Assembly: GCA_017432665.1 (NCBI GenBank)
Contig: JAFRIS010000015.1
Location: 2 to 64,001, forward strand
Length of the DNA: 64,000 nucleotides
From: Bacilli bacterium
GTDB lineage: Bacteria > Bacillota_I > Bacilli_A > RF39 > UBA660
Direction: 5' to 3'
Below are positions 46,227 to 54,842 of this stretch, piece after piece (the stretch's first letter is position 1; every line of letters begins with the position of its first letter). The notes beneath the pieces are model-generated. The model worked only from the letters and a program-made list of their open reading frames with translations. It was not told the origin of the DNA and made no database searches. The translations under genes and the position numbers were made by a program.

Positions 46227-46574
46227 TTATTTACTATTTATACCTAACAAATTAGTTAATTTATCAGCAAAACTTTTTCCGAACATTTGTCTAATTGCTG
46301 CGACTAACTCAGTATAATTTTTTATAATGTTATTTTCTAATACATAAATCAAATTTTCAAAATTCTTATCCATAGTTGAAAAAGTATCGTCAAACGTATC
46401 AATAATTGTATTATAATCTAAGCCAGCAACTGAAAAGCATGAAGAACTAGAGTCTAATACTCTTCTAATATTATTATTATATTCATTACTGATAGCTTCT
46501 CTTTGATTCTTTAAAGATGTTAAAACTGTTTTTAATTCTGCAGTTGTAATTGCATTTCCACTATAACTAGCCAT
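46227..46574 (-). CDS. Small all-helical protein, paralogue of the 48937-49275 product
   Basis: 115 aa. Shares the N-terminal LK...L.K.....I...YN pattern and the C-terminal tail F-G-K-S-FADKLTNLLGINSK with the 112-aa protein (FNKTFASELGNLLDINK). RBS is GAGGTGA. Confidence 0.65.
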   Translation of the reverse strand: MASYSGNAITTAELKTVLTSLKNQREAISNEYNNNIRRVLDSSSSCFSVAGLDYNTIIDTFDDTFSTMDKNFENLIYVLENNIIKNYTELVAAIRQMFGKSFADKLTNLLGINSK

Positions 46575-46579
46575 TTAGA

Positions 46580-47254
46580 TCACCTCGAAATTGCACTTTC
46601 TATTGCAGAGATATTCTTAGCTTGATTTTCTTTAACCATATCTCTTGCTTGTTCATATGTACTGCATAATAATTCTAAAGCAGCAATTGTATTAGTGACT
46701 TTCTTATCCATACCAGTTAATTTAGATGTGTAACTAGCACAATCTTCACCCACCCAAGAATTATCAAGTTTAGCAACATTTCTCTTAGTTTCAACTTCCC
46801 AAGAATTTTTTAAAGAGGAAATTGATTTCTTTAAAGTAGCAATAATTTCTTCTAATTGATTATATGTAATATTTAAATCTTGTCCAGTTCCAGGAAGAAC
46901 AACTCCATATTTTGGTTGAATAACACCTGAAGGTGGATTAATCATTACACCATATTTTGGTTGAGGTGGCACATGACTAATTGCGACACCATATTTAGCT
47001 TGAATATAATTATTAAAGTTTCCACTACTTGTAGCAGTACCATAACCCATCTTTCCAGAAAATTGTTGTTTAGAATTCACAAGATTTTCTATATTTGGAG
47101 AACTTGCGGTAACTACCGATTCAGAAAAATCGCCATTTGTTTCAAGAAAAGCATCTGCAGTTGGAACAACTGCATTTGCACTATTTTCAACGATTCCAAA
47201 TACAGTTGAATCAGGATTTTTCCATGTAATTTTTGCTACTGATTTATAGGCCAT
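46580..47254 (-). CDS. PKYGV-repeat protein with C-terminal WXG100-like helical domain
   Basis: aa 68-122 read KMGYG...AKYGV...PQPKYGV...IQPKYGV. aa 130-224 are helical with LDNSWVGEDCASYTSKL (W-x-G turn). RBS is AGGAGG. Confidence 0.7.
   Translation of the reverse strand: MAYKSVAKITWKNPDSTVFGIVENSANAVVPTADAFLETNGDFSESVVTASSPNIENLVNSKQQFSGKMGYGTATSSGNFNNYIQAKYGVAISHVPPQPKYGVMINPPSGVIQPKYGVVLPGTGQDLNITYNQLEEIIATLKKSISSLKNSWEVETKRNVAKLDNSWVGEDCASYTSKLTGMDKKVTNTIAALELLCSTYEQARDMVKENQAKNISAIESAISR
46889..47053 (-). repeat. In-frame tandem repeats encoding (P/Q)-x-P-K-Y-G-V units
   Basis: CAACCAAAATATGG(T/A)GT occurs twice, plus GCTAAATATGGTGT. Three perfect KYGV units and one degenerate KMGYG unit. 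Confidence 0.8.
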
Positions 47255-47282
47255 ACTATAATACCTCCTAGTCTACAATATA

Positions 47283-47293
47283 ATATTAACACA
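47283..47293 (-). promoter_or_regulatory. Possible internal extended -10 element TGTGTTAATAT ahead of the repeat-protein gene
   Basis: Lies in the only sizeable gap (49 nt) within the operon, 28 nt upstream of the ATG at 47254. Confidence 0.3.
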
Positions 47294-47303
47294 TAAAAAT
47301 TAT

Positions 47304-48677
47304 TTATTCAACAAAATCTGTTCCCAATATTTCTTTCATACACATATTTGGCACTTTTTCTTTATAATTCCATGTATGAAACGAATCCCCTCTACAATAT
47401 TTAAAACTCTTACATTTTTTACATTTTGCATTAGTAGTTAAGCGTTTTTTTCTAAAGATTTCAAATTTGTTTTCCCAGACATCTACAAAATTGTCTGTTT
47501 TAATATTTCCTTGAACTAACGATTGATCTCTAACGTTTGGACAAACACAGATATCGCCATTAGCTAAAATACTTCCGATAAATAATCCAGCACCACAAAT
47601 GAAACTGTGATCACGTAAAATATTTTCATATTTAAGACCTAAATAATGACTACAGTCATAATCAACTATCATTTTACCTTCTAAACGCTTTTCGCGAATA
47701 AAATTAAACATATATATTAAACCATCTTTATCGAGCAAAATACCATCATTATCATAGGCTCTACCAATAGGATCCACTCCCATTACACGCCATTCTTCAA
47801 TACCTTTATCAAGTAACATTTGATATATGTCTTCTAATTCATTTAAATTCTTTTTGTTCGCAACAGTAGTGATCTGAAGTGATCTTAAAGTTTCTAAACC
47901 TTTTAATAGATCAATAGCTTTCATAATTTTATCGTATGAACCAGGTACTCTTCTAAAACTTTCATGTGTTTCTTTTAGACCATCTAAACTAATAGAAATA
48001 CTTTCCATATTTGTTCGACGGAAATTTTCAATTGTTTTTTCATTAATAAGCATTCCATTTGTAGTAATTCCCCATCTAAAACCTAATCCTACAGCATACT
48101 CCATGATATCAAATAAGTCTTTACGCATTAGAGGTTCTCCACCTGTCACAGTAAGAAAAACATTTTGAGCACCATATCTATTATGTATTTCTAAGAGAGT
48201 TCTTTTTAAATCCTCTGTACTTATTTCGTCTTTAGGTATTTTATAACCACAACTACTTCCACAATGTTCACACTTAGCATTACATCTAAGAGTTACTTCA
48301 AGAAATAAATTAGTTAGAACAGGATTTTCAACATAAAAATTTACTTCATCTGCGATTTGTTCTAAATCTTTCTTTTTTGCTTTTATAACTTTTTTAGTAG
48401 TTTTATTATTTAAATCATTAAAATCATGAGGAGTACGATAAAGTTTATCTCTTTCTAACTTTTCGAAGCACTCTGAAATACTATCTACAAACTTAGTCGC
48501 ATCTTCCAAGGCTCCAATAAATTCTTTTCTATTTTCTCCTTCTAATAATTTATCTGCACTATCTTCTTCACTTTTTATTTCTTTTTTCAACGACTTTAAT
48601 TGCTTCTTTAAATTTTTATACTCTTTAATATCATTGTCATTTTCATTTTCTTGTGCTTGTTTTTCTTTTAGTCTCAT
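47304..48677 (-). CDS. Radical SAM enzyme with C-terminal SPASM domain and ~115-aa coiled-coil N-terminal extension
   Basis: CNAKCEHC (CX3CX2C; DNA 48261-48284), GGEPL, and the C-terminal Cys cluster CSHY...FICGAGLFIGSILANGDICVCPN...CKKCKSFKYCRGDS...NMC. The start overlaps the upstream stop (ATGA). Confidence 0.85.
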   Translation of the reverse strand: MRLKEKQAQENENDNDIKEYKNLKKQLKSLKKEIKSEEDSADKLLEGENRKEFIGALEDATKFVDSISECFEKLERDKLYRTPHDFNDLNNKTTKKVIKAKKKDLEQIADEVNFYVENPVLTNLFLEVTLRCNAKCEHCGSSCGYKIPKDEISTEDLKRTLLEIHNRYGAQNVFLTVTGGEPLMRKDLFDIMEYAVGLGFRWGITTNGMLINEKTIENFRRTNMESISISLDGLKETHESFRRVPGSYDKIMKAIDLLKGLETLRSLQITTVANKKNLNELEDIYQMLLDKGIEEWRVMGVDPIGRAYDNDGILLDKDGLIYMFNFIREKRLEGKMIVDYDCSHYLGLKYENILRDHSFICGAGLFIGSILANGDICVCPNVRDQSLVQGNIKTDNFVDVWENKFEIFRKKRLTTNAKCKKCKSFKYCRGDSFHTWNYKEKVPNMCMKEILGTDFVE

Positions 48678-48928
48678 TCGGCTACCTCCTGGTTATCAAT
48701 TAAATCTTGTTTTAGTTGCCAACTCTCTTTTAATAAATCTAATTGTTCTAAAATAGCGACAATAGTTTTATCAGTGCTTTTAATCTTCTTTATAAACTCA
48801 TCACATAACTCATCTTTCCATGATTGTCGTAGATTTTCTAAATCATATATATTTAAATCATTCCAAATCTTATGGATTTTTTCAGTAGTTTTATCAATAT
48901 TTGCAATTATAATCTCTTTATTTTCCAT
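48674..48928 (-). CDS. Small helical protein, WXG100-like (W-x-D variant), paralogous to the C-terminal domain of the 46580-47254 product
   Basis: 84 aa. LRQSWKDELCDEF aligns with LDNSWVGEDCASY. RBS is AGGTGA. Confidence 0.6.
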   Translation of the reverse strand: MENKEIIIANIDKTTEKIHKIWNDLNIYDLENLRQSWKDELCDEFIKKIKSTDKTIVAILEQLDLLKESWQLKQDLIDNQEVAE

Positions 48929-48936
48929 AAATTCAC

Positions 48937-49275
48937 CTACTTATTAATATCTAATAAATTACCTAGTTCTGAAGCAAAGGTTTTATTAAATAATTCTTTT
49001 ATTTCAACAGAAAGATTTTCATATTCAGGAATAATTTTTGTGAGTAAAAGATTAGTCAATTCTGAAATATCACTATCAAATCTAGTGAATAGTTTTTTTA
49101 ATTCATCACTAATTCCAACAATATCTTCTTTTGATTTAATTAATTCTTTTTGGCTTGTAGTTAATATATCTTTTAATGATTCATTATACAAATCCATTAT
49201 TTCATTTTTTTCTTTAATTAAATTATTAGTTATTTTTCTTAAATCCCCAGTATTAACAATAACTTGATTATTCAT
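48937..49275 (-). CDS. Small all-helical protein, paralogue of the 46227-46574 product
   Basis: 112 aa with the shared C-terminal tail motif. RBS is AGAGG. Confidence 0.65.
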   Translation of the reverse strand: MNNQVIVNTGDLRKITNNLIKEKNEIMDLYNESLKDILTTSQKELIKSKEDIVGISDELKKLFTRFDSDISELTNLLLTKIIPEYENLSVEIKELFNKTFASELGNLLDINK

Positions 49276-49276
49276 A

Positions 49277-50155
49277 TTAAACCTCTATTAATTCATACTC
49301 TCTAGAACCAACGCCAAGTTCAGCTGCCCTTTCAATAGTATGAATACCATTTCTAGAATTAACTCTTTCCATAAAGTGTTCTTTTCCTGAATCATCACTA
49401 TTCATAACGATATCAATACAAGCTTGATCTATAGCCACTGGATCTAGAGAAATTAAAATACCCATATCTTTCATACAAGGATCTTCAGCCTCAGCACAGC
49501 AGTCACAATCTACACTCATATTAGCCATAACATTAATAAATACCATATTACCCTTGAAATAGTCTACTACTGCAGAAGCGGCCTCTGCCATACTTTCTAA
49601 GAAATGATCTTGAGGAGGCAAATTATTCCATAAACTATATTGGTCTTTATTAGTTCCTGCAGAATGAATCCAACTTTTTCCTTCACTAGATGCACAACCA
49701 ATAGATAATTGTTTTAGTGCTCCTCCATAACCTCCCATTGGATGTCCTTTGAAATGTGAAAGTACTAACATAGAATCATAGTTGGCAATATTTTTTCCTA
49801 AATAATCTTCTTTTAAATGTACTCCATTTTTGATAGGAATCGCTAAATCAGGTCCTTCAGCATCCATTAAATCAAAATTAAATAATTTACTCCATCCATG
49901 TTTTTCAATAGTTTTTAAATGCTTTTCAGTAGTATTTCTTTCTCCTGCATAAGCAGTATTACATTCAACAACAGTACCATTAACATAATCAATCATTGGC
50001 TTCATAAATTCTGGTTTTAAATAGTTTTGATTACCTTCTTCACCTGAATGTACTTTAACTGCTACTTTTCCAGTAAGCTCTTTACCAAGTTTTTTATACA
50101 TATCAACTACCTTTTCAGGTGTTACTTCTTTACAATAATATACTTTTGCTTTCAT
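49277..50155 (-). CDS. DUF362 domain protein (putative Fe-S/metal-binding)
   Basis: MKAKVYY...GKVAVKVHSGEEGNQNYLKP...VVECNTAYAGERN is typical of DUF362 as I recall it. Cys cluster VDCDCCAEAEDPC. RBS TAGGAGGA precedes the ATG at 50155. Confidence 0.75.
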   Translation of the reverse strand: MKAKVYYCKEVTPEKVVDMYKKLGKELTGKVAVKVHSGEEGNQNYLKPEFMKPMIDYVNGTVVECNTAYAGERNTTEKHLKTIEKHGWSKLFNFDLMDAEGPDLAIPIKNGVHLKEDYLGKNIANYDSMLVLSHFKGHPMGGYGGALKQLSIGCASSEGKSWIHSAGTNKDQYSLWNNLPPQDHFLESMAEAASAVVDYFKGNMVFINVMANMSVDCDCCAEAEDPCMKDMGILISLDPVAIDQACIDIVMNSDDSGKEHFMERVNSRNGIHTIERAAELGVGSREYELIEV

Positions 50156-50174
50156 ATTATTCCTCCTATCAATA

Positions 50175-53100
50175 TTATAACACAAATTTATCAGTACTAT
50201 CTAATACAGGTTCTTCTTCATTAATCATACTGGCAATTTCTTCATTAGATTTTACATTTCGTAAATAGTTAGTAATTACTTCTTTCATTTTTTCATAGCC
50301 ACTAGAATCCATTTTGTGAGAAACAAACTCATCATGATTTTTACCTATTTTTCCTTCGAAGTTTTCTCCAAAATCCCAGATTTGATAATTTTCTTTGAAT
50401 TCTTCAAAATCTTTTGATCTGTTTGCAGCTTCTAAGAATGATAAACAAGCATCATAGAATGAACCACCATTTTGTAATATCCAGTTTTCTACTCCTACTC
50501 CTCCTAGTCCACCTTCAGACGGATTGGAAAAATGTCCTTTATAACAGTGAGCTTCTTTTAAAACCTTTTTAGCTAAAATAATATTAGCTACTACTAGTTT
50601 ATACTTTTCTTCTCCATATTGGTCTCTAATACTCTCTAAACGGTCCTTTAAGCAAAGATCAGTAGTATATTCAATACCATCAGTCTTAGGTGTAAAAGAA
50701 ATATCAATATCAATTGTATCAGCTATTTCACCAGGATTAACGCCACTAAATCTAAAATCACCTTTATTAGTAATCTCAACAGTACCACCATTTTCAAGTA
50801 TTTTTTCTTTTATTGCGACTTTTAATTTTTCTATTAATACAGTATTTTTAAAAATATTAGTATCTAGACGCATCATATAATCAAAATCACTATCATTTGG
50901 TTTATTAGTACCTCTACCAGTAGAACCAGTATCAATTAATTCTGAGAAACCAAATGTAATATCTTTACTTAGATAAGGTCGTAATTCACGGATACCTTGT
51001 TCTTTACAAACTTCTTCTATTACAGCAAATATTATTTGTTGAATAGCAGCAACATTACTAGCATTGTCATCTAAAGATTTAGCAATTTCAACTATTTCAG
51101 GAGTTTCTAAATTATCAGATAATTTGTATTCAGGACATCCCAAATGGGATAATCCTTGCATTTTACTTCGTAATTCTAAATAATCATCATAAGTAAATAT
51201 CAAATTATTATCAGTATCTACTACTGGTATATATACTCCTTTACGAGCTAATTCATAACCAATTTGCTTATTAGGAATTTCTGTAACAATATGGTCAATA
51301 TAACCTATTGGGAATCCCGTACGGATACCAAAATGTTCTTCTGTACCAGTTCTAAACAATTCATAGTTTCGCATATTGTCTCTAATTCTCTTAGGTAATT
51401 CTTTATTCTTATTTTCCATATCACGTGATTCAAAAAATTTATCACTTTTTAAAACAAAGTATATTGGTCCATGTGTTGCGGCAGGAGTAGCTGAAACGCT
51501 CTCTACAAAAGACCCACCCTTAGCTATCTTTATACAGTCAGTATCTAAAGGGGTGTAATCAGTATTGGCATCACAACCCAAGAATTCTTGAGCTACACTA
51601 CCATTATCTAGAATACGTCCTAAGAATTTAATATCACCAATTCCTTTGATTAAATCACCAGCTTTAAGAGAAAAATCAGTTTTATCTTTATTTCTTTCTG
51701 TAATAGAATCTAATGCTGAATCAATAATTCTTCTAGCATCTTCAACGCTTTCAATACCTGCGAAGTAACAATACATCTTTACAATTCTATCTGCTATTGA
51801 ACTAGAATTATCAACTTTTAAGAACTTACTTAAATTCTTAATATTTTCAATAGGATCATCCACTTCTACAAATTCATCTTTATTAGGCATTCTACTGTAG
51901 TTATAGATGGCTTTTAAACACTCAGAAAATTGCTTTAGCAAATGAACTTGATCTAAAGATAATGGTCCATATAATTCACCAGTTATTATTTCTCGATAAA
52001 GTTTTTCTCCAGCTTCAATATTATCAAGATAATCAACAAAATCTGTATTAGCTGATTCTAAATTAATTCTAATTAAATCAGCAAATATAATAGCATCTTT
52101 TATTTCAGGATGATCTTCATACTTTTTTAATACTGGTGACATACGATCAAAAATTGGCATATCAGGATTAATAGTCTTATAGACTAAAAATCTTTTACCA
52201 AAACCAGGGATATGATTACTAGCAAATATTTTTTCAATAGTATCAAACTTTTCTAAAGGATCATCTACATATAATAATTGTCTTTCTAATTCAGTTCTAA
52301 TTCTAACTAATTCAGAAGAATTAGCATAAGAGATTCTATTAAACAATTCTCCTAAAATCGCAATTCTTTCTTCAGTTAATTCATGATAATTTTCTCTAAT
52401 AAAATCCCTAAATTCTTGTTGCGAATTTTCATCATCTTCACGGATTTTTTTATACTGTTCCATGATTAAATACTTTCTTCTATTATCTTCTTCTCTAGTT
52501 TTCCCTTCAAGTTGTAAATCAGCCATAAATAACATATCATGATTACCGAATGCTATATTTGTTTCACTAAAGTATTTAATATTCTCTTCAGTATATACAA
52601 TATATTTACCATAAAAAGCATCTTTTAGTTGAGGAGATACACTATCAGAACAAAACATTTCTGAATGACTTTTAAATACTTCTCTATAAGTTTCATCGTA
52701 TTCTTCTCCATTTAATACCATCTGATAGGCATTTTGTTCCATGGCTTCATAAGAATGATTATGAGCTCTTGAATCTAAAAATTTACCATAGATTGGAGCT
52801 AACTTATAAAATTCTTCTTCAGACAACGTACTATGAATTTTTCTGGTCATTGCTCTATAATCTTTTTGTCTTAGTATTTCAACTAATTCAGGATTTTCCT
52901 TTATGATTCTAGCACCCAATTTACCTTCCATTAAAATTCTTCTAATATAATTATCCGATATATCAGAAAAATCAAATTGTGGATAGCGTTTAATCATTTC
53001 CTCATTTAATACTATCCAATCTGCGTTTTTATAGTCATCATGTCCTATGTAATCATCATAAATTGCCTTATAAAACTGATTTTGTACTTCTTCTTCAGAT

Positions 53101-54842
53101 TTAGTAAAATCAAAATCATCTTCATAAAGAATAGTTTCAAAAAACAGCATGTTTTGATTTAAGAAATTTAAAAAGTTTTCATTTCCAAATCTCTCACAAT
53201 ATTCTCCAACAAACCAAATGTTTTTAGAAAACCTATATCTAATATCATGAGTACATAGATACTCTCTTTGTTCAGTAGTTAAATATTGTATTGTTGCACA
53301 ATTAGTTATATATTGAATTTTTGAAAATTCCTTAGGCACAATTAAATCTGGACTTATTTTTGAAAAATCTGGCACTTCAGACAAACGATTTGAGTCATTT
53401 AAATAAGTCTCTATCATCCATCGAACAAAATCTTCATATCTAGGTGGTTTATGAAATGGAATACGGTTATAATTATCAATTAGACGTTCAATAAAGCCAC
53501 TTTCATAAATTTCTTTATATAATTCATACATATTAGATTCTTGACTAAATCTATATAAGTTACCCGCTCCTACTCTATCAATTACATCTTGTGAATCAAA
53601 ATCTTTAATTATAATATGTTCATAATCTTCTAATTCGCTTGGATCAGGTATGTCAAAAACAATTTTAGTAAACATTTCAGAGAAACCTTCTGGTATTTTT
53701 GATCCAGCCATACCTTCTGTTAAATACTTACGAACTTCAGCACGAAGTGTATCTTCTATCCTATTAGGATTAAAATCAGTAGAATAATCTAATACTTTAG
53801 GAGCGTTTTCATTGCTAAATAACGCATGCATAAGTTGTGGATATTTATTATTTAATTCAATTACTTTTTGATATCCAATTTCTTCATACATCTTAGCAAA
53901 ATTATTTGGTATTTTGTAATCAACAGAAAAATCATATTCTAATACTGTAAATATTTCTTGATTATTAACTAAATCATCATAAGTTAATGTTCCTTTATAA
54001 TATCTATCTATTAAACCTTGATCGGTAGTATAATTTTCAATAAAAATTGTTTTAAAAGTACTTTTAGTCGCATCGGATTTACCTAAAAGTTCAAAAGCAA
54101 AAGATTCTCTTAATTCTTGATTTATATGATTCATTATTTCCTTAACATCAAATCTATCAATAAGTTCTTGATTAAGAAAACTGATATTATTAATAATTAC
54201 TAAGTAAAAATTTGGATCTTCTTTATAAGCTTTAATTGCGGGTTCTACACCGTATGAATTAATAAATCTATGTAATTCAAAATCTCTAACATATCGATGA
54301 TTTCTAGAAAATTTAGCTATTTGTTCAGGAGAAAATCCAATTAAATCTTCTATTACACATTGACCATTTAAGTATTTTTGTCTAAATTCAATATCAAAAC
54401 TATCATCTAAGAAAACATCCGGATGATTTCTAATGGTTTCTTCACCAAATACTTGACGAGATATTTCAAAAGTAACTCTTTCTCCTTCTAACGTATTTAA
54501 ATATTGATAATTAATAATATTACAATTTTCAAAATTAATATTTGCAATTTCTAAATAACAACCCAAATCTAATAAGTTTATTGTTGCATTAGTACCATTA
54601 AAAGAAATACTTTTATCTTTTGGAACAAAAATAACAAAATCATATTCTGTAGAAGGAATATCACTCAAGTCATAAGAAGTTAGTTCTTGCAATAAAGGAT
54701 ATATTGTATTTCCATATTCCTCAATTAATTTTAATGCTTGAGTATCGTCAACGTTATCAGAATCAGCAAATATTCTTTCATTTTCTGCATTAATTTTAGA
54801 AACTATTTCTCGAAAATGTTCTAGAGTTATCTTTTCCCTCAT
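50175..54842 (-). CDS. 1555-aa cytoplasmic protein with C-terminal Pol-beta-superfamily nucleotidyltransferase-like region; remainder unassigned
   Basis: No signal peptide or TM segment. ELIDTGSTGRGTNKPNDSDFDYMMRLD (DNA 50880-50927), then TIDIDISF, then ILAKKVLKEAHCYKG...GGLGGVGVENWILQNGG. RBS is AGGAGAG. Confidence 0.6.
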   Translation of the reverse strand: MREKITLEHFREIVSKINAENERIFADSDNVDDTQALKLIEEYGNTIYPLLQELTSYDLSDIPSTEYDFVIFVPKDKSISFNGTNATINLLDLGCYLEIANINFENCNIINYQYLNTLEGERVTFEISRQVFGEETIRNHPDVFLDDSFDIEFRQKYLNGQCVIEDLIGFSPEQIAKFSRNHRYVRDFELHRFINSYGVEPAIKAYKEDPNFYLVIINNISFLNQELIDRFDVKEIMNHINQELRESFAFELLGKSDATKSTFKTIFIENYTTDQGLIDRYYKGTLTYDDLVNNQEIFTVLEYDFSVDYKIPNNFAKMYEEIGYQKVIELNNKYPQLMHALFSNENAPKVLDYSTDFNPNRIEDTLRAEVRKYLTEGMAGSKIPEGFSEMFTKIVFDIPDPSELEDYEHIIIKDFDSQDVIDRVGAGNLYRFSQESNMYELYKEIYESGFIERLIDNYNRIPFHKPPRYEDFVRWMIETYLNDSNRLSEVPDFSKISPDLIVPKEFSKIQYITNCATIQYLTTEQREYLCTHDIRYRFSKNIWFVGEYCERFGNENFLNFLNQNMLFFETILYEDDFDFTKSEEEVQNQFYKAIYDDYIGHDDYKNADWIVLNEEMIKRYPQFDFSDISDNYIRRILMEGKLGARIIKENPELVEILRQKDYRAMTRKIHSTLSEEEFYKLAPIYGKFLDSRAHNHSYEAMEQNAYQMVLNGEEYDETYREVFKSHSEMFCSDSVSPQLKDAFYGKYIVYTEENIKYFSETNIAFGNHDMLFMADLQLEGKTREEDNRRKYLIMEQYKKIREDDENSQQEFRDFIRENYHELTEERIAILGELFNRISYANSSELVRIRTELERQLLYVDDPLEKFDTIEKIFASNHIPGFGKRFLVYKTINPDMPIFDRMSPVLKKYEDHPEIKDAIIFADLIRINLESANTDFVDYLDNIEAGEKLYREIITGELYGPLSLDQVHLLKQFSECLKAIYNYSRMPNKDEFVEVDDPIENIKNLSKFLKVDNSSSIADRIVKMYCYFAGIESVEDARRIIDSALDSITERNKDKTDFSLKAGDLIKGIGDIKFLGRILDNGSVAQEFLGCDANTDYTPLDTDCIKIAKGGSFVESVSATPAATHGPIYFVLKSDKFFESRDMENKNKELPKRIRDNMRNYELFRTGTEEHFGIRTGFPIGYIDHIVTEIPNKQIGYELARKGVYIPVVDTDNNLIFTYDDYLELRSKMQGLSHLGCPEYKLSDNLETPEIVEIAKSLDDNASNVAAIQQIIFAVIEEVCKEQGIRELRPYLSKDITFGFSELIDTGSTGRGTNKPNDSDFDYMMRLDTNIFKNTVLIEKLKVAIKEKILENGGTVEITNKGDFRFSGVNPGEIADTIDIDISFTPKTDGIEYTTDLCLKDRLESIRDQYGEEKYKLVVANIILAKKVLKEAHCYKGHFSNPSEGGLGGVGVENWILQNGGSFYDACLSFLEAANRSKDFEEFKENYQIWDFGENFEGKIGKNHDEFVSHKMDSSGYEKMKEVITNYLRNVKSNEEIASMINEEEPVLDSTDKFVL

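What the first reader, a model, noticed from the sequence alone, without database searches (positions are those of the whole stretch)
46580..47254. Tandem PKYGV repeats fused to a WXG-like domain: candidate radical SAM substrate embedded in a protein rather than a short leader-core peptide
Seen in sequence: aa 68-122 contain KMGYG, AKYGV, PQPKYGV and IQPKYGV, also repeated at DNA level (CAACCAAAATATGGTGT) and spaced by Pro-rich linkers. A ~95-aa helical domain with NSWVGED follows. The gene sits directly downstream of the SPASM enzyme, after the only real gap in the operon, and that gap contains an extended -10-like TGTGTTAATAT. Established knowledge: SPASM/twitch enzymes such as StrB (streptide Lys-Trp bond) and the three-residue cyclophane-forming enzymes act on short motifs that contain an aromatic residue and are often present in several copies per precursor. 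Inference: each K-Y-G-V unit (an aromatic residue plus two following residues, with an adjacent Lys) could be one cross-link site. The helical WXG-like domain could then serve the recognition or carrier role normally played by a leader peptide.
Basis: partly seen in the sequence, partly recalled or inferred. Interest (0 to 1): 0.75.

Follow-up and report, generated by a model that had tools for sequence, protein, structure and literature searches.

The report
Tyr-Gly repeat protein beside radical-SAM enzyme
A 224-residue protein from an uncultured rumen/gut Bacilli bacterium has a floppy tail with repeated Gln-Pro-Lys-Tyr-Gly-Val units attached to an ESAT-6-like helical hairpin, and it is almost certainly the target of the radical-SAM enzyme encoded just upstream, which most likely cuts tyramine out of each Tyr-Gly site to leave a reactive ketoamide, as known "splicease" enzymes do.

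Summary
On the minus strand, 46580-47254 encodes a 224-aa protein with YG sites at Y71, Y88, Y101 and Y116 (three as KYGV). The DNA repeat is present three times. A C-terminal helix-W167-V-G169-helix hairpin follows.

The motif Q-[P/A]-[K/A/L]-Y-G-V is conserved in 33 of 34 homologues, with 2-7 copies. Every locus with enough sequence has the same radical SAM/SPASM gene immediately upstream.

The decisive evidence comes from relatives of the enzyme (52-68% identical). They sit next to unrelated proteins that also carry x-Y-G repeats, typically P-Q-x-V-Y-G-[I/V/P]-P. 45 of 74 downstream ORFs have at least two sites, against 4 of 455 other ORFs. True TIGR04133 enzymes neighbour lipoproteins with C-E-Y-G-S-P or C-Y-G-M-P.

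Only Tyr-Gly is universal. The Lys is not conserved, so the proposed Lys/Tyr cross-link is not supported. X-Y-G is the target of tyramine spliceases (PlpX).

The KYGV-repeat peptide CtA sits beside an rSAM whose best curated match is the PlpX family. Joint phylogeny with that family has only 50% bootstrap, so the chemistry is inferred, not shown.

The hairpin domain also occurs on paralogues without YG sites, so it looks like a carrier or docking module. No type VII secretion genes lie nearby.

Verdict: a new protein-embedded variant of a known kind.

The parts
46580..47254 (-). Substrate gene, 224 aa: a disordered N-terminal region with YG repeats followed by a C-terminal WXG100-like hairpin
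   Evidence: ORF and translation. 35 homologues, all from uncultured gut/rumen Bacilli-type MAGs. Alignment A1. AF2 model.
46889..47053 (-). Repeat region, aa 68-122, with four YG sites at Y71, Y88, Y101 and Y116. Consensus Q-[P/A]-[K/A]-Y-G-V. Proposed modification sites.
   Evidence: 144 sites in 34 homologues, with Q(-3) 82%, G(+1) 94% and V(+2) 85%. The DNA repeat is present three times. The region is predicted disordered.
46583..46882 (-). WXG100-like helical hairpin domain, aa 125-224: helix 131-166, turn W167-V-G169, helix 170-223
   Evidence: Pfam WXG100 E=1.3e-4, 22.6 bits, below the 27.3 cut-off. TIGR03930 21.3 bits, below 44.85. AF2 hairpin. Foldseek top hits are HP0062, B. anthracis EsxB, CFP10/ESAT6 and EsxGH, with target-normalised TM 0.70-0.80 but E about 0.15. 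W167, G169, D171 and C172 are invariant.
47255..47303 (-). 49-nt intergenic gap between the rSAM and substrate genes. It contains the substrate's AGGAGG ribosome-binding site and the TGTGTTAATAT string.
   Evidence: The promoter scan is not above the shuffle background.
47304..48326 (-). Radical SAM/SPASM catalytic core, aa 118-457. Cluster motif C132-x3-C136-x-H-C139-G-S-S-C143.
   Evidence: Pfam Radical_SAM 3.7e-23 and SPASM 2.8e-7. Best NCBIfam match is TIGR04133 at 303.8 bits, below the 425 cut-off. AF2 mean pLDDT 88. Foldseek neighbours are SkfB, CteB, SuiB, anSME, ChlB and PqqE.
48327..48677 (-). N-terminal helical extension of the rSAM, aa 1-117: hairpin H3-37/H47-80 with an L-x-G-E-N turn, then H92-117
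   Evidence: AF2. Conserved in the WXG-associated clade and absent from the ~364-aa relatives. Weak profile match to B84 (hhalign 51%, E 1.5e-4). Encoded as a separate 76-aa gene with its own downstream RBS in L034 (32% identity, E 8e-9).
48674..48928 (-). B84: an 84-aa helical protein, paralogue of the substrate's WXG-like domain. Its stop overlaps the rSAM start by 4 nt.
   Evidence: hhalign B84 family vs substrate C-terminal domain: 94.8%, E 4.9e-8. Conserved upstream of the rSAM in L001, L002, L004-L006, L015-L017, L019, L021-L024, L034, L055 and L094; in L007 a B84-like gene lies downstream of the rSAM.
48937..49275 (-). A112: a 112-aa helical protein, paralogue of C115
   Evidence: hhalign A vs C 99.9%, E 5e-32. 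No significant Pfam or PDB match.
46227..46574 (-). C115: a 115-aa helical protein that always follows the substrate gene (5-nt gap)
   Evidence: Conserved downstream of the substrate in L001-L007 and many metagenome loci. The same A/C-type gene also follows WXG-like paralogues that lack YG sites.
49277..50185 (-). DUF362 protein, 302 aa. A neighbour, not a core part of the cassette.
   Evidence: Pfam DUF362 9.4e-51. Present only in the closely related syntenic loci L001, L004, L005 and L016; absent in L002, L006 and L007.

Best explanation
The 224-aa protein is a multi-site, protein-embedded substrate of the rSAM/SPASM enzyme encoded 49 nt upstream.

Proposed mechanism: the enzyme acts on each x-Tyr-Gly unit in the disordered N-terminal tail. 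Most probably it excises a tyramine equivalent (C8H9NO, -135.07 Da per site) and rejoins the backbone. [quoted passage not shown]

The C-terminal WXG100-like hairpin is not modified. It works as a carrier or docking module. It probably pairs with other helical-hairpin proteins of the cassette: B84, the enzyme's own N-terminal hairpin, and A112/C115. This would hold the tail at the enzyme and/or hand the product on for assembly or export.

The product would carry 3-4 electrophilic ketoamide groups. A likely role is protease inhibition; Lys-derived ketoamides would suit trypsin-like enzymes.

Shown here: the repeats, their conservation, the hairpin fold, the conserved gene cassette, and the association of x-Y-G with this enzyme superfamily.
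Inferred: that the enzyme modifies this protein, the splicing chemistry, the docking mode and the biological role.
For: (1) The motif is conserved with variable copy number (2-7) in 33 of 34 homologues. Only Y and G are near-invariant.

(2) The rSAM is immediately upstream in all 7 loci with sequence there (L001-L007). The A-B-rSAM-substrate-C cassette is conserved even where the flanking genes differ.

(3) The motif follows the enzyme, not the scaffold.
- 45 of 74 complete ORFs directly downstream of rSAM homologues have at least two Q-x(1,2)-Y-G-[VIPTA] sites, against 4 of 455 other ORFs of 100 aa or more. At least three of those 4 (L053, L091, L093) also lie next to or just downstream of the rSAM.
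- The scaffolds range from 85 to 970 aa and have no Pfam family in common with the window protein.

(4) True TIGR04133 enzymes (31-35% identical) neighbour 'radical SAM-associated putative lipoproteins' with one C-E-Y-G-S-P or C-Y-G-M-P site.

(5) CtA, the PCAT1 cargo, has VKYGV, IKYGV, IKYGV and QPMYGI and matches the repeat profile at E 0.0025. In Acetivibrio mesophilus its operon is rSAM/SPASM - PCAT - CtA. That rSAM's best curated family is TIGR04103, the PlpX type, at 238 bits.

(6) Partners of TIGR04103 and TIGR03913 enzymes also carry x-Y-[G/A]: Nostoc ...IALYGLPPELF, and DUF1843 peptides MLYGG, KPYGVAISD and QPYGA followed by a C-terminal helical hairpin.

(7) From the literature:
- Spliceases excise tyramine at X-Y-G with variable X (PMC11414181; PMC9811515).
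- Natural splice tags PIRPLYGLPI and AVAAMYGVVFP resemble QPKYGVVLPG (PMC10533398).
- YG-rich neighbours of rSAM-SPASM genes were the successful mining criterion, with 27 pairs confirmed (PMC10849128).
- An activating helix from a leader or a separate Y protein can be fused to the enzyme. This parallels the fused versus separate N-terminal hairpin seen here.

(8) The NJ tree places the window clade with TIGR04133 (96%) and recovers this group as sister to TIGR04103 + TIGR03913 + CtA-type.
Against: No chemistry was measured.
- The rSAM is not a member of the curated splicease family: TIGR04103 scores 117.6 bits against a 725 cut-off, which is no better than heme or mycofactocin rSAM models.
- The joint clade with TIGR04103 has only 50% bootstrap, with few outgroups.
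- Whether TIGR04133-type enzymes are spliceases is not documented in any paper I could read. Scott et al. 2022 (Chem) is not held.
- A few homologues have Y-A instead of Y-G (P0024, P0031, L033). Whether spliceases tolerate this is unknown to me.
- One D-Y-G site in RcsA was not spliced (PMC11626197), yet L031 has six QPDYGV sites.
- Q at -3 is strongly conserved in this family and its sister clade and has no known role in splicing.
- The docking model rests on a 51% hhalign match and on analogy.
Confidence: 0.5

Rival explanations
1. Cross-link model. The rSAM forms a C-C or C-O bond between the Tyr ring and a neighbouring residue: Lys at -1, Gln at -3 or Val at +2. Each repeat would become a small cyclophane, as in triceptides, streptide, ryptides or PqqE.
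For: SPASM enzymes commonly cross-link aromatic residues in repeated short motifs (general knowledge). Structural neighbours include SuiB, PqqE and CteB. Q at -3 is 82% conserved in the family and invariant among the sites scored in the sister clade, although that search pattern required a Q.
Against: No candidate partner residue is universal across the enzyme superfamily.
- K(-1) is A, L, V, D, E or C elsewhere.
- Q(-3) is missing in three of four CtA repeats and in the TIGR04133 lipoproteins.
- +2 is V, I, P, S or M.
- In three-residue cyclophane motifs the middle residue is the variable one. Here the middle residue (Gly) is the conserved one.
Confidence: 0.2
2. Other chemistry at the Tyr-Gly site by the same enzyme. 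Candidates are epimerisation, beta-hydroxylation, C-alpha/C-beta cleavage of the Tyr side chain (as in ThiH/HydG), or oxidative decarboxylation-type chemistry as in MftC.
For: The enzyme-motif association is strong, but the chemistry is unconstrained by sequence. MftC, which acts on a C-terminal Val-Tyr, is among the better-scoring curated families at 138.9 bits.
Against: There is no precedent for these reactions at internal X-Y-G sites. The only experimentally established rSAM reaction defined by an X-Y-G motif is tyramine excision. MftC needs a C-terminal Tyr.
Confidence: 0.15
3. There is no enzyme-substrate relation. The protein is an ordinary WXG100/type VII secretion substrate, or a structural protein whose Pro/Tyr/Gly-rich repeats are linkers or wall-binding elements. 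The rSAM acts on something else, such as a cofactor linked to the DUF362 neighbour.
For: The WXG-like domain family includes many members without YG sites (90 of the best 150 representatives). Some rSAM homologues lack an obvious YG neighbour, for example L011 and L046. AhbD-type cofactor enzymes score moderately.
Against: The x-Y-G enrichment next to the rSAM is extreme and recurs on unrelated scaffolds and in other phyla. DUF362 is absent from half of the cassettes. No EssC, EsaA or EssB genes occur in the window or in the fetched loci.
Confidence: 0.08

Closest known systems
Spliceotides and tyramine spliceases (PlpX/PlpY, PcpX, RhaX, RcsX, RasX; NCBIfam TIGR04103; Morinaka 2018; Scott 2022)
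   Same: An rSAM with a SPASM domain sits next to a precursor with one or several X-Y-G sites where X varies. The local context is similar: PlpA 'AVAAMYGVVFP' and 'PIRPLYGLPI' against 'IQPKYGVVLPG'. Protein-sized substrates and leader-independent recognition of a short tag are both known. A small helical partner can be separate or fused to the enzyme.
   Different: The enzyme is outside TIGR04103 (118 bits against a 725 cut-off) and groups with TIGR04133. The precursor has no Nif11, NHLP or double-glycine leader. The sites are N-terminal to a C-terminal WXG100-like hairpin. The cassette has three extra helical proteins. There is no PqqD-like RRE. The chemistry is untested.
TIGR04133 rSAM/SPASM with TIGR04134-type 'radical SAM-associated putative lipoprotein' (Bacteroidota, Treponema)
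   Same: This is the closest curated enzyme family: 304 bits, 31-35% identity, 96% bootstrap. The partner protein carries an x-Y-G-x-P site.
   Different: The score is below the family cut-off of 425. The partner there is a lipoprotein with a single site right after the lipobox, encoded upstream of the enzyme. Here the partner is a cytoplasmic-looking protein with 3-7 sites and a WXG-like domain, encoded downstream.
CtA, the cargo of the peptidase-containing ABC transporter PCAT1 (Acetivibrio thermocellus; PDB 6V9Z)
   Same: It has tandem [V/I]-K-Y-G-V and Q-P-M-Y-G-I repeats in a disordered region. The profile match is E 0.0025. It is encoded in an operon with an rSAM/SPASM enzyme.
   Different: CtA is a 90-aa double-glycine-leader peptide exported by a PCAT. 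Its rSAM (510 aa, with TPR repeats) is only 33% identical to the window enzyme and groups with TIGR04103/TIGR03913.
GDL-motif / DUF1843 peptides with TIGR03913 rSAM/SPASM maturase
   Same: The architecture is analogous: an N-terminal x-Y-[G/A] site ('KPYGVAISD' against the window's 'AKYGVAISH') followed by a C-terminal helix-turn-helix 'follower'.
   Different: These have a single site and are 56-64 aa long. They are proteobacterial or Bacteroidota. The enzyme clade is different, and the hairpin is not WXG-like.
WXG100 / ESAT-6 family (PF06013, TIGR03930), type VII secretion substrates
   Same: Helix-turn-helix hairpin of about 95 aa with an invariant W-x-G turn. The best structural matches are EsxB, HP0062 and CFP10/ESAT6. 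Small helical paralogues are encoded alongside, as with EsxA/EsxB pairs.
   Different: It scores below both HMM cut-offs. The domain is C-terminal to a long disordered region rather than a ~100-aa stand-alone protein or an N-terminal targeting domain. No T7SS machinery genes lie nearby.

Membership tests
Spliceotide system (tyramine splicease + X-Y-G precursor) | rSAM enzyme with CxxxCxxC cluster motif and a SPASM domain | tested here: met
   Pfam Radical_SAM 3.7e-23 and SPASM 2.8e-7. Motif C132/C136/C139.
Spliceotide system (tyramine splicease + X-Y-G precursor) | Adjacent precursor carries conserved X-Y-G site(s) with variable X | tested here: met
   4 sites in the window protein and 144 sites in 34 homologues. 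Y is fixed by the search pattern, G is 94% and X is K, A or L.
Spliceotide system (tyramine splicease + X-Y-G precursor) | Enzyme belongs to the curated PlpX family (TIGR04103 / IPR026482) or to a clade of validated spliceases | tested here: not met
   TIGR04103 scores 117.6 bits against a 725 cut-off. The NJ tree joins the window/TIGR04133 group to the TIGR04103 group with only 50% bootstrap. Sequences of the 27 validated spliceases were not available.
Spliceotide system (tyramine splicease + X-Y-G precursor) | [quoted passage not shown] | not testable with these tools
   Needs co-expression and LC-MS/MS.
Spliceotide system (tyramine splicease + X-Y-G precursor) | Activating helix from a leader or a small Y protein bound to the enzyme | tested here: inconclusive
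   The candidates are all helical: B84, and the N-terminal hairpin of the enzyme, which is fused here and a separate 76-aa gene in L034. No binding or similarity to PlpY/PqqD was shown.
TIGR04133 rSAM/SPASM family | HMM score at or above the curated cut-off (425 bits) | tested here: not met
   303.8 bits. The ~364-aa sister-clade proteins score 306-317 bits.
TIGR04133 rSAM/SPASM family | Partner is a small lipoprotein encoded next to the enzyme | tested here: not met
   The window protein has no signal peptide or lipobox. The Parabacteroides and Treponema partners do.
WXG100 / ESAT-6 (PF06013, TIGR03930) | Helix-turn-helix hairpin with W-x-G in the turn | tested here: met
   AF2 gives H131-166, W167-V-G169 and H170-223. 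W167 and G169 are invariant. Foldseek top hits are WXG100 proteins with target TM 0.70-0.80, although E is about 0.15.
WXG100 / ESAT-6 (PF06013, TIGR03930) | HMM score above the family threshold | tested here: not met
   PF06013 22.6 bits against 27.3. TIGR03930 21.3 bits against 44.85.
WXG100 / ESAT-6 (PF06013, TIGR03930) | About 100 aa in size and encoded with type VII secretion machinery (EssC/EccC ATPase) | tested here: not met
   The protein is 224 aa with the domain at the C-terminus. No FtsK/SpoIIIE-type ATPase or other T7SS gene is in the 64-kb window or the fetched loci. The rest of the genome could not be searched.
Three-residue cyclophane RiPPs (triceptides) / streptide-type Lys-aromatic cross-links | Conserved aromatic residue plus a conserved cross-link partner (residue +2, or a Lys), with a variable middle residue | tested here: not met
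   The middle residue (G) is the conserved one. The partner candidates K(-1), Q(-3) and V(+2) all vary across the enzyme superfamily.

The most novel reading that the evidence does not exclude
The WXG100-like hairpin is a new kind of recognition and delivery module for a protein-modifying rSAM enzyme. In this reading, the enzyme's own N-terminal hairpin (fused here, a separate gene in L034) and/or the paralogue B84 pair with the substrate's C-terminal hairpin, in the way EsxA pairs with EsxB. This feeds the disordered Tyr-Gly tail into the active site. The A/C-type partners then hand the modified protein to an ESX-like or other export route. The bacterium would thus release a protein carrying several ketoamide (or otherwise modified) warheads. 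That would link ESAT-6-type proteins to radical-SAM post-translational chemistry for the first time.
Probability: 0.2. Interest if true: 0.8.

Novelty: new variant of a known kind. Interest (0 to 1): 0.62.

Why it matters
If the chemistry is tyramine splicing, this is a natural case of several beta-amino-acid/ketoamide sites installed in a folded-domain protein, not a leader-core peptide. The recognition and carrier architecture is also unreported: a C-terminal ESAT-6-like hairpin plus helical partners, one of which is fused to the enzyme.

It would add compact, naturally fused enzymes and short tags (Q-P-K-Y-G-V) to the protein-engineering toolbox built on spliceases.

The comparison also ties together three sets of 'orphan' proteins as probable X-Y-G targets of one enzyme superfamily:
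- TIGR04133-associated lipoproteins of Bacteroidota;
- V-Y-G-I-P repeat proteins, seen in two sampled gut/rumen loci (L009, L013) next to a conjugative-type coupling protein gene;
- the structural-biology model cargo CtA.

Each of these can be tested directly by co-expression and mass spectrometry.

Tried and rejected
- Lys-Tyr or Tyr-Val cross-link as the conserved chemistry: rejected because K(-1) and V(+2) are not conserved across the family or superfamily.
- Promoter in the 49-nt gap: the consensus scan is not above the shuffle background.
- T7SS context: no EssC-like or other T7SS genes in the window or loci. The window flanks are housekeeping genes: AlaRS, MutS, Mur ligase, ABC transporters.
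- DUF362 as part of the system: present only in closely syntenic loci.
- Curated families for the repeat region, CtA fragment, sister-clade substrates and A/C proteins: no significant Pfam, NCBIfam or PDB-sequence hits.
- Solved structure of a close rSAM relative: none. The best are BlsE and SkfB at E 1e-13 to 1e-15. No splicease structure appears among the fold matches.
- Phage records: no homologue of the sister-clade rSAM.
- Literature linking WXG100 with radical SAM: nothing relevant in the held library.
- Scott et al. 2022 (Chem) and supplementary sequences of validated spliceases could not be obtained. Direct comparison with validated enzymes was therefore replaced by TIGR04103 scoring and one Nostoc TIGR04103 member.
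- Agathobacter rectalis homologue (H4): different context, with an MFS transporter. Not followed further.
Full report
**1. Observation**

The finding's coordinates hold an ORF on the minus strand (46580-47254, 224 aa). An AGGAGG ribosome-binding site lies about 8 nt upstream of the ATG.

The protein has four Tyr-Gly sites: GKMGYGTAT (Y71), IQAKYGVAI (Y88), PQPKYGVMI (Y101) and IQPKYGVVL (Y116). None of 100,000 shuffles of the protein gave three KYGV.

The DNA repeat CAACCAAAATATGGTGT is present three times on the minus strand, at 46947, 46902 and 46986, with 0, 1 and 2 mismatches. None are expected by chance.

AlphaFold2, run with a 34-sequence alignment, predicts residues 1-128 as disordered. 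It then predicts a hairpin: helix 131-166, turn W167-V-G169, helix 170-223, with pLDDT about 70-83.
- Pfam WXG100 and TIGR03930 match this domain, but below their thresholds (22.6 against 27.3 bits; 21.3 against 44.85 bits).
- Foldseek's best PDB matches are WXG100 proteins: HP0062, B. anthracis EsxB, CFP10/ESAT6 and EsxGH. Target-normalised TM is 0.70-0.80, but E is only about 0.15, as expected for a simple hairpin.

The gene lies 49 nt downstream of an rSAM/SPASM gene (47304-48677). That is the largest gap in the cassette. The TGTGTTAATAT string is present, but promoter-like matches are not enriched in this AT-rich region.

**2. Source and family**

The exact protein is annotated only as a hypothetical protein of a 'Bacilli bacterium' MAG. 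Relatives come from rumen and gut MAGs labelled Bacilli, Erysipelotrichaceae, 'Tenericutes' or Clostridium.

An exhaustive profile search of 1.84 billion representative proteins finds only 174 clusters at E <= 1e-3.

In 34 aligned homologues the C-terminal domain is highly conserved (NSWVGxDC...ALELLCSTYEQARDMV). The N-terminal region varies in length but carries 2-7 copies of Q-[P/A]-[K/A/L]-Y-G-V in 33 of 34 sequences. Over 144 sites:
- Q(-3) 82%
- P or A at -2, 83%
- K 57%, A 30% and L 7% at -1
- G 94% and A 6% at +1
- V 85% at +2

**3. Gene context**

In all seven loci that extend far enough (L001-L007), an rSAM 68-82% identical to the window's sits directly upstream of the substrate gene. 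The order is A(~112 aa)-B(~84 aa)-rSAM-substrate-C(~115 aa) in L001, L002 and L004-L006, even where the flanking genes differ. L007 keeps rSAM-substrate-C, with its A- and B-like genes downstream.

DUF362 and the DAG kinase are shared only by close syntenic relatives.

Profile comparisons give these relationships:
- A and C are paralogues (99.9%).
- B is a paralogue of the substrate's WXG-like domain (94.8%, E 5e-8).
- B weakly matches the N-terminal extension of the enzyme (51%, E 1.5e-4).

AlphaFold2 models the enzyme confidently (mean pLDDT 88). It shows an N-terminal hairpin (H3-37/H47-80, turn L-x-G-E-N), then H92-117, then the rSAM/SPASM core.

In locus L034 this hairpin is a separate 76-aa gene (32% identity, E 8e-9). 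It is followed by its own RBS and then a 370-aa rSAM. The hairpin is therefore a separable module.

The 64-kb window is otherwise housekeeping chromosome and has no type VII secretion genes.

**4. The motif follows the enzyme**

The rSAM core is 52-68% identical to a large clade of ~364-aa rSAM/SPASM proteins from gut and rumen metagenomes. In two sampled loci (L009, L013) these sit next to a VirD4/TraG-type coupling protein gene.

Their downstream genes have no Pfam family in common with the window protein and range from 85 to 970 aa. Yet they carry repeats such as ENVPQFVYGIP, DNVPREVYGIP, QLVYGPPQ and PQMLYGPPP.

- 45 of 74 complete ORFs immediately downstream of an rSAM homologue have at least two Q-x(1,2)-Y-G-[VIPTA] sites.
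- Only 4 of 455 other ORFs of 100 aa or more do, and at least three of those four (L053, L091, L093) also lie next to or just downstream of the rSAM.

Further out, genuine TIGR04133 enzymes of Parabacteroides and Treponema (31-35% identical) neighbour 'radical SAM-associated putative lipoproteins'. These have a single C-E-Y-G-S-P or C-Y-G-M-P site right after the lipobox.

The repeat profile also hits CtA, the model cargo of the PCAT1 transporter, which has VKYGV, IKYGV, IKYGV and QPMYGI (E 0.0025). In Acetivibrio mesophilus the CtA homologue is in an operon rSAM/SPASM-PCAT-CtA. That rSAM's best curated family is TIGR04103, the PlpX/splicease type (238 bits), followed by TIGR03913 and TIGR04133.

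Partners of a Nostoc TIGR04103 enzyme and of TIGR03913 enzymes likewise carry x-Y-[G/A]:
- Nostoc: ...IALYGLPPELF.
- TIGR03913 partners (DUF1843 peptides): MLYGG, KPYGVAISD and QPYGA. In these the site is N-terminal and a helical hairpin follows, an architecture parallel to the window protein.

**5. Mechanism**

The only feature common to all these partners is Tyr-Gly (rarely Tyr-Ala) in a Pro-rich or hydrophobic context. The residue before Tyr is free to vary: K, A, L, V, M, D, E or C.

This is the definition of the splicease target. Spliceases are rSAM/SPASM enzymes that excise a tyramine equivalent at X-Y-G. [quoted passage not shown]

Supporting points from the literature:
- Natural splice tags (PIRPLYGLPI, AVAAMYGVVFP; PMC10533398) resemble IQPKYGVVLPG.
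- Mining for YG-rich neighbours of rSAM-SPASM genes is how further spliceases were found. 27 pairs are confirmed and 939 predicted.

I therefore take tyramine splicing as the most likely reaction. Under this model:
- The tail would carry Lys- and Ala-derived ketoamides.
- The WXG-like hairpin would be an unmodified carrier or docking domain.
- The published finding that an activating helix can come from a leader, from a separate Y protein, or be fused to the enzyme parallels the fused and separate N-terminal hairpin seen here.

Protease inhibition is the function reported for spliceotides. For this protein it is only an inference.

**6. Limits**

- No chemistry is shown.
- The enzyme is not in TIGR04103 (118 bits against a 725 cut-off) and is below the TIGR04133 cut-off (304 against 425).
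- A 20-sequence NJ tree groups the window and sister clades (97%) with TIGR04133 (96%). It groups TIGR04103 + TIGR03913 + CtA-type together (100%). The union of the two groups, set against MftC, PqqE, NirJ, TIGR04053, TIGR04347 and ScfB, has only 50% bootstrap.
- The key paper (Scott et al. 2022, Chem) is not held. I cannot say whether TIGR04133-type or Firmicutes V-Y-G-I-P systems are among its validated or predicted types. My recollection that it covers protein-sized precursors rests on memory only.
- Q(-3) conservation and the occasional Y-A sites are unexplained.

**7. The WXG-like domain**

The same C-terminal domain, followed by an A/C-type gene, occurs on paralogues whose long N-terminal regions have no YG sites: L034 318 aa, L007 480 aa and L094 266 aa. 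Of the best 150 representative relatives, 90 have no site, 22 have one and 38 have two or more.

Single-site variants exist: VVSLYGVSP and AVALYGVFKPGP.

Other architectures put 9-13 Q-[P/T]-[K/L]-Y-G-V repeats C-terminal to a helical domain: P0214, P0297 and L091.

The hairpin is therefore a general module onto which a YG tail has been grafted. Whether it serves export, assembly or enzyme docking is open.

**8. Verdict**

- The reading 'protein-embedded rSAM substrate' is strongly supported by comparative evidence.
- The specific Lys/Tyr cross-link idea is not supported.
- The most likely mechanism is X-Y-G tyramine splicing, which makes this a new architectural variant of a known kind.
- No paper in the held library links WXG100 proteins with radical SAM modification.

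Noticed in passing
window 50175-54842 (minus strand): A 1555-aa ORF with no Pfam or NCBIfam family lies between the alpha-amylase gene and DUF362. The syntenic locus L001 lacks it, so it looks like an insertion. Residues 1296-1350 (GSTGRG...DSDFDYMMRLD) weakly match a CBASS-type oligonucleotide cyclase / nucleotidyltransferase model (PADLOC PDLC00776, E 9.7e-5).
   Followed up: partly
L009 5001-6758; L013 2126-8345; L035-L089 (metagenome loci): A large sister clade of ~364-aa rSAM/SPASM genes (52-68% identical) occurs in gut and rumen contigs. In L009 and L013 it sits directly after a VirD4/TraG-like coupling protein gene, and in L013 also after an ADP-ribosylglycohydrolase gene. It is followed by proteins of 85-970 aa with 2-6 repeats of K-Y-D-[IV]-x-P-E-D-N-x-P-Q-x-V-Y-G-[IV]-P and, in several (e.g. 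L040, L047, L058), a shared unannotated domain (...NGNGxYPxNWNEFIDLxSEYEILFKK).
   Followed up: partly
L095 4174-8264 (Acetivibrio mesophilus RLII01000002.1): CtA is the cargo used unmodified in the PCAT1 cryo-EM structures (6V9Z and others). Here its homologue is encoded in an operon rSAM/SPASM-TPR (510 aa) - PCAT - CtA, and it has four x-Y-G repeats. Its natural form is probably rSAM-modified at these sites. A 2023 review states that the modified substrate is undetermined.
   Followed up: partly
L096 2129-4053 (Parabacteroides distasonis); L097 2586-4062 (Treponema saccharophilum): The 'radical SAM-associated putative lipoproteins' next to TIGR04133 enzymes each carry one Y-G-x-P site directly after the lipobox cysteine region (GFSCGENGEIPCEYGSP; LTSCYGMP). 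This suggests the same site-specific modification near the mature N-terminus of a lipoprotein.
   Followed up: partly
L100 537-1252; L101 1159-1872: DUF1843 / 'GDL-motif' peptides come in triplets upstream of TIGR03913 rSAM genes. They have an N-terminal x-Y-[G/A/M] site (MLYGG, KPYGVAISD, PMYMA, VLYAA, QPYGA) followed by a helix-GD-helix hairpin. This is a 'core first, helical follower second' layout like the window protein.
   Followed up: no
L034 1393-2696; L007 11839-13634; L094 6402-7506: Paralogous gene pairs: a long Ser/Gly/Pro-rich or repeat-rich N-terminal region with a C-terminal WXG-like domain but no YG sites, followed by an A/C-type small helical gene. One of them (L094 266 aa) has a predicted membrane-spanning segment. 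This looks like a family of hairpin-tagged disordered proteins of unknown purpose in these Bacilli MAGs.
   Followed up: no
L091 1712-2827 and L093 2560-3591 (opposite strand to the rSAM); P0214, P0297: Proteins of 343-371 aa with an N-terminal helical domain and 7-13 C-terminal Q-[T/P]-[K/L]-Y-G-V repeats. In L091, L093 and P0214 many repeats are followed by a Cys within two residues (e.g. YGVVC). They converge on, or lie next to, rSAM homologues. P0214 ends in a hydrophobic anchor and a basic tail.
   Followed up: no
window 48540-48566 (rSAM aa 38-46) and alignment A2: The turn of the enzyme's N-terminal hairpin has a conserved L-[LMF]-x-G-E-N motif, reminiscent of the L-x-G turn of LXG-type T7SS effectors. 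This could be coincidence.
   Followed up: no
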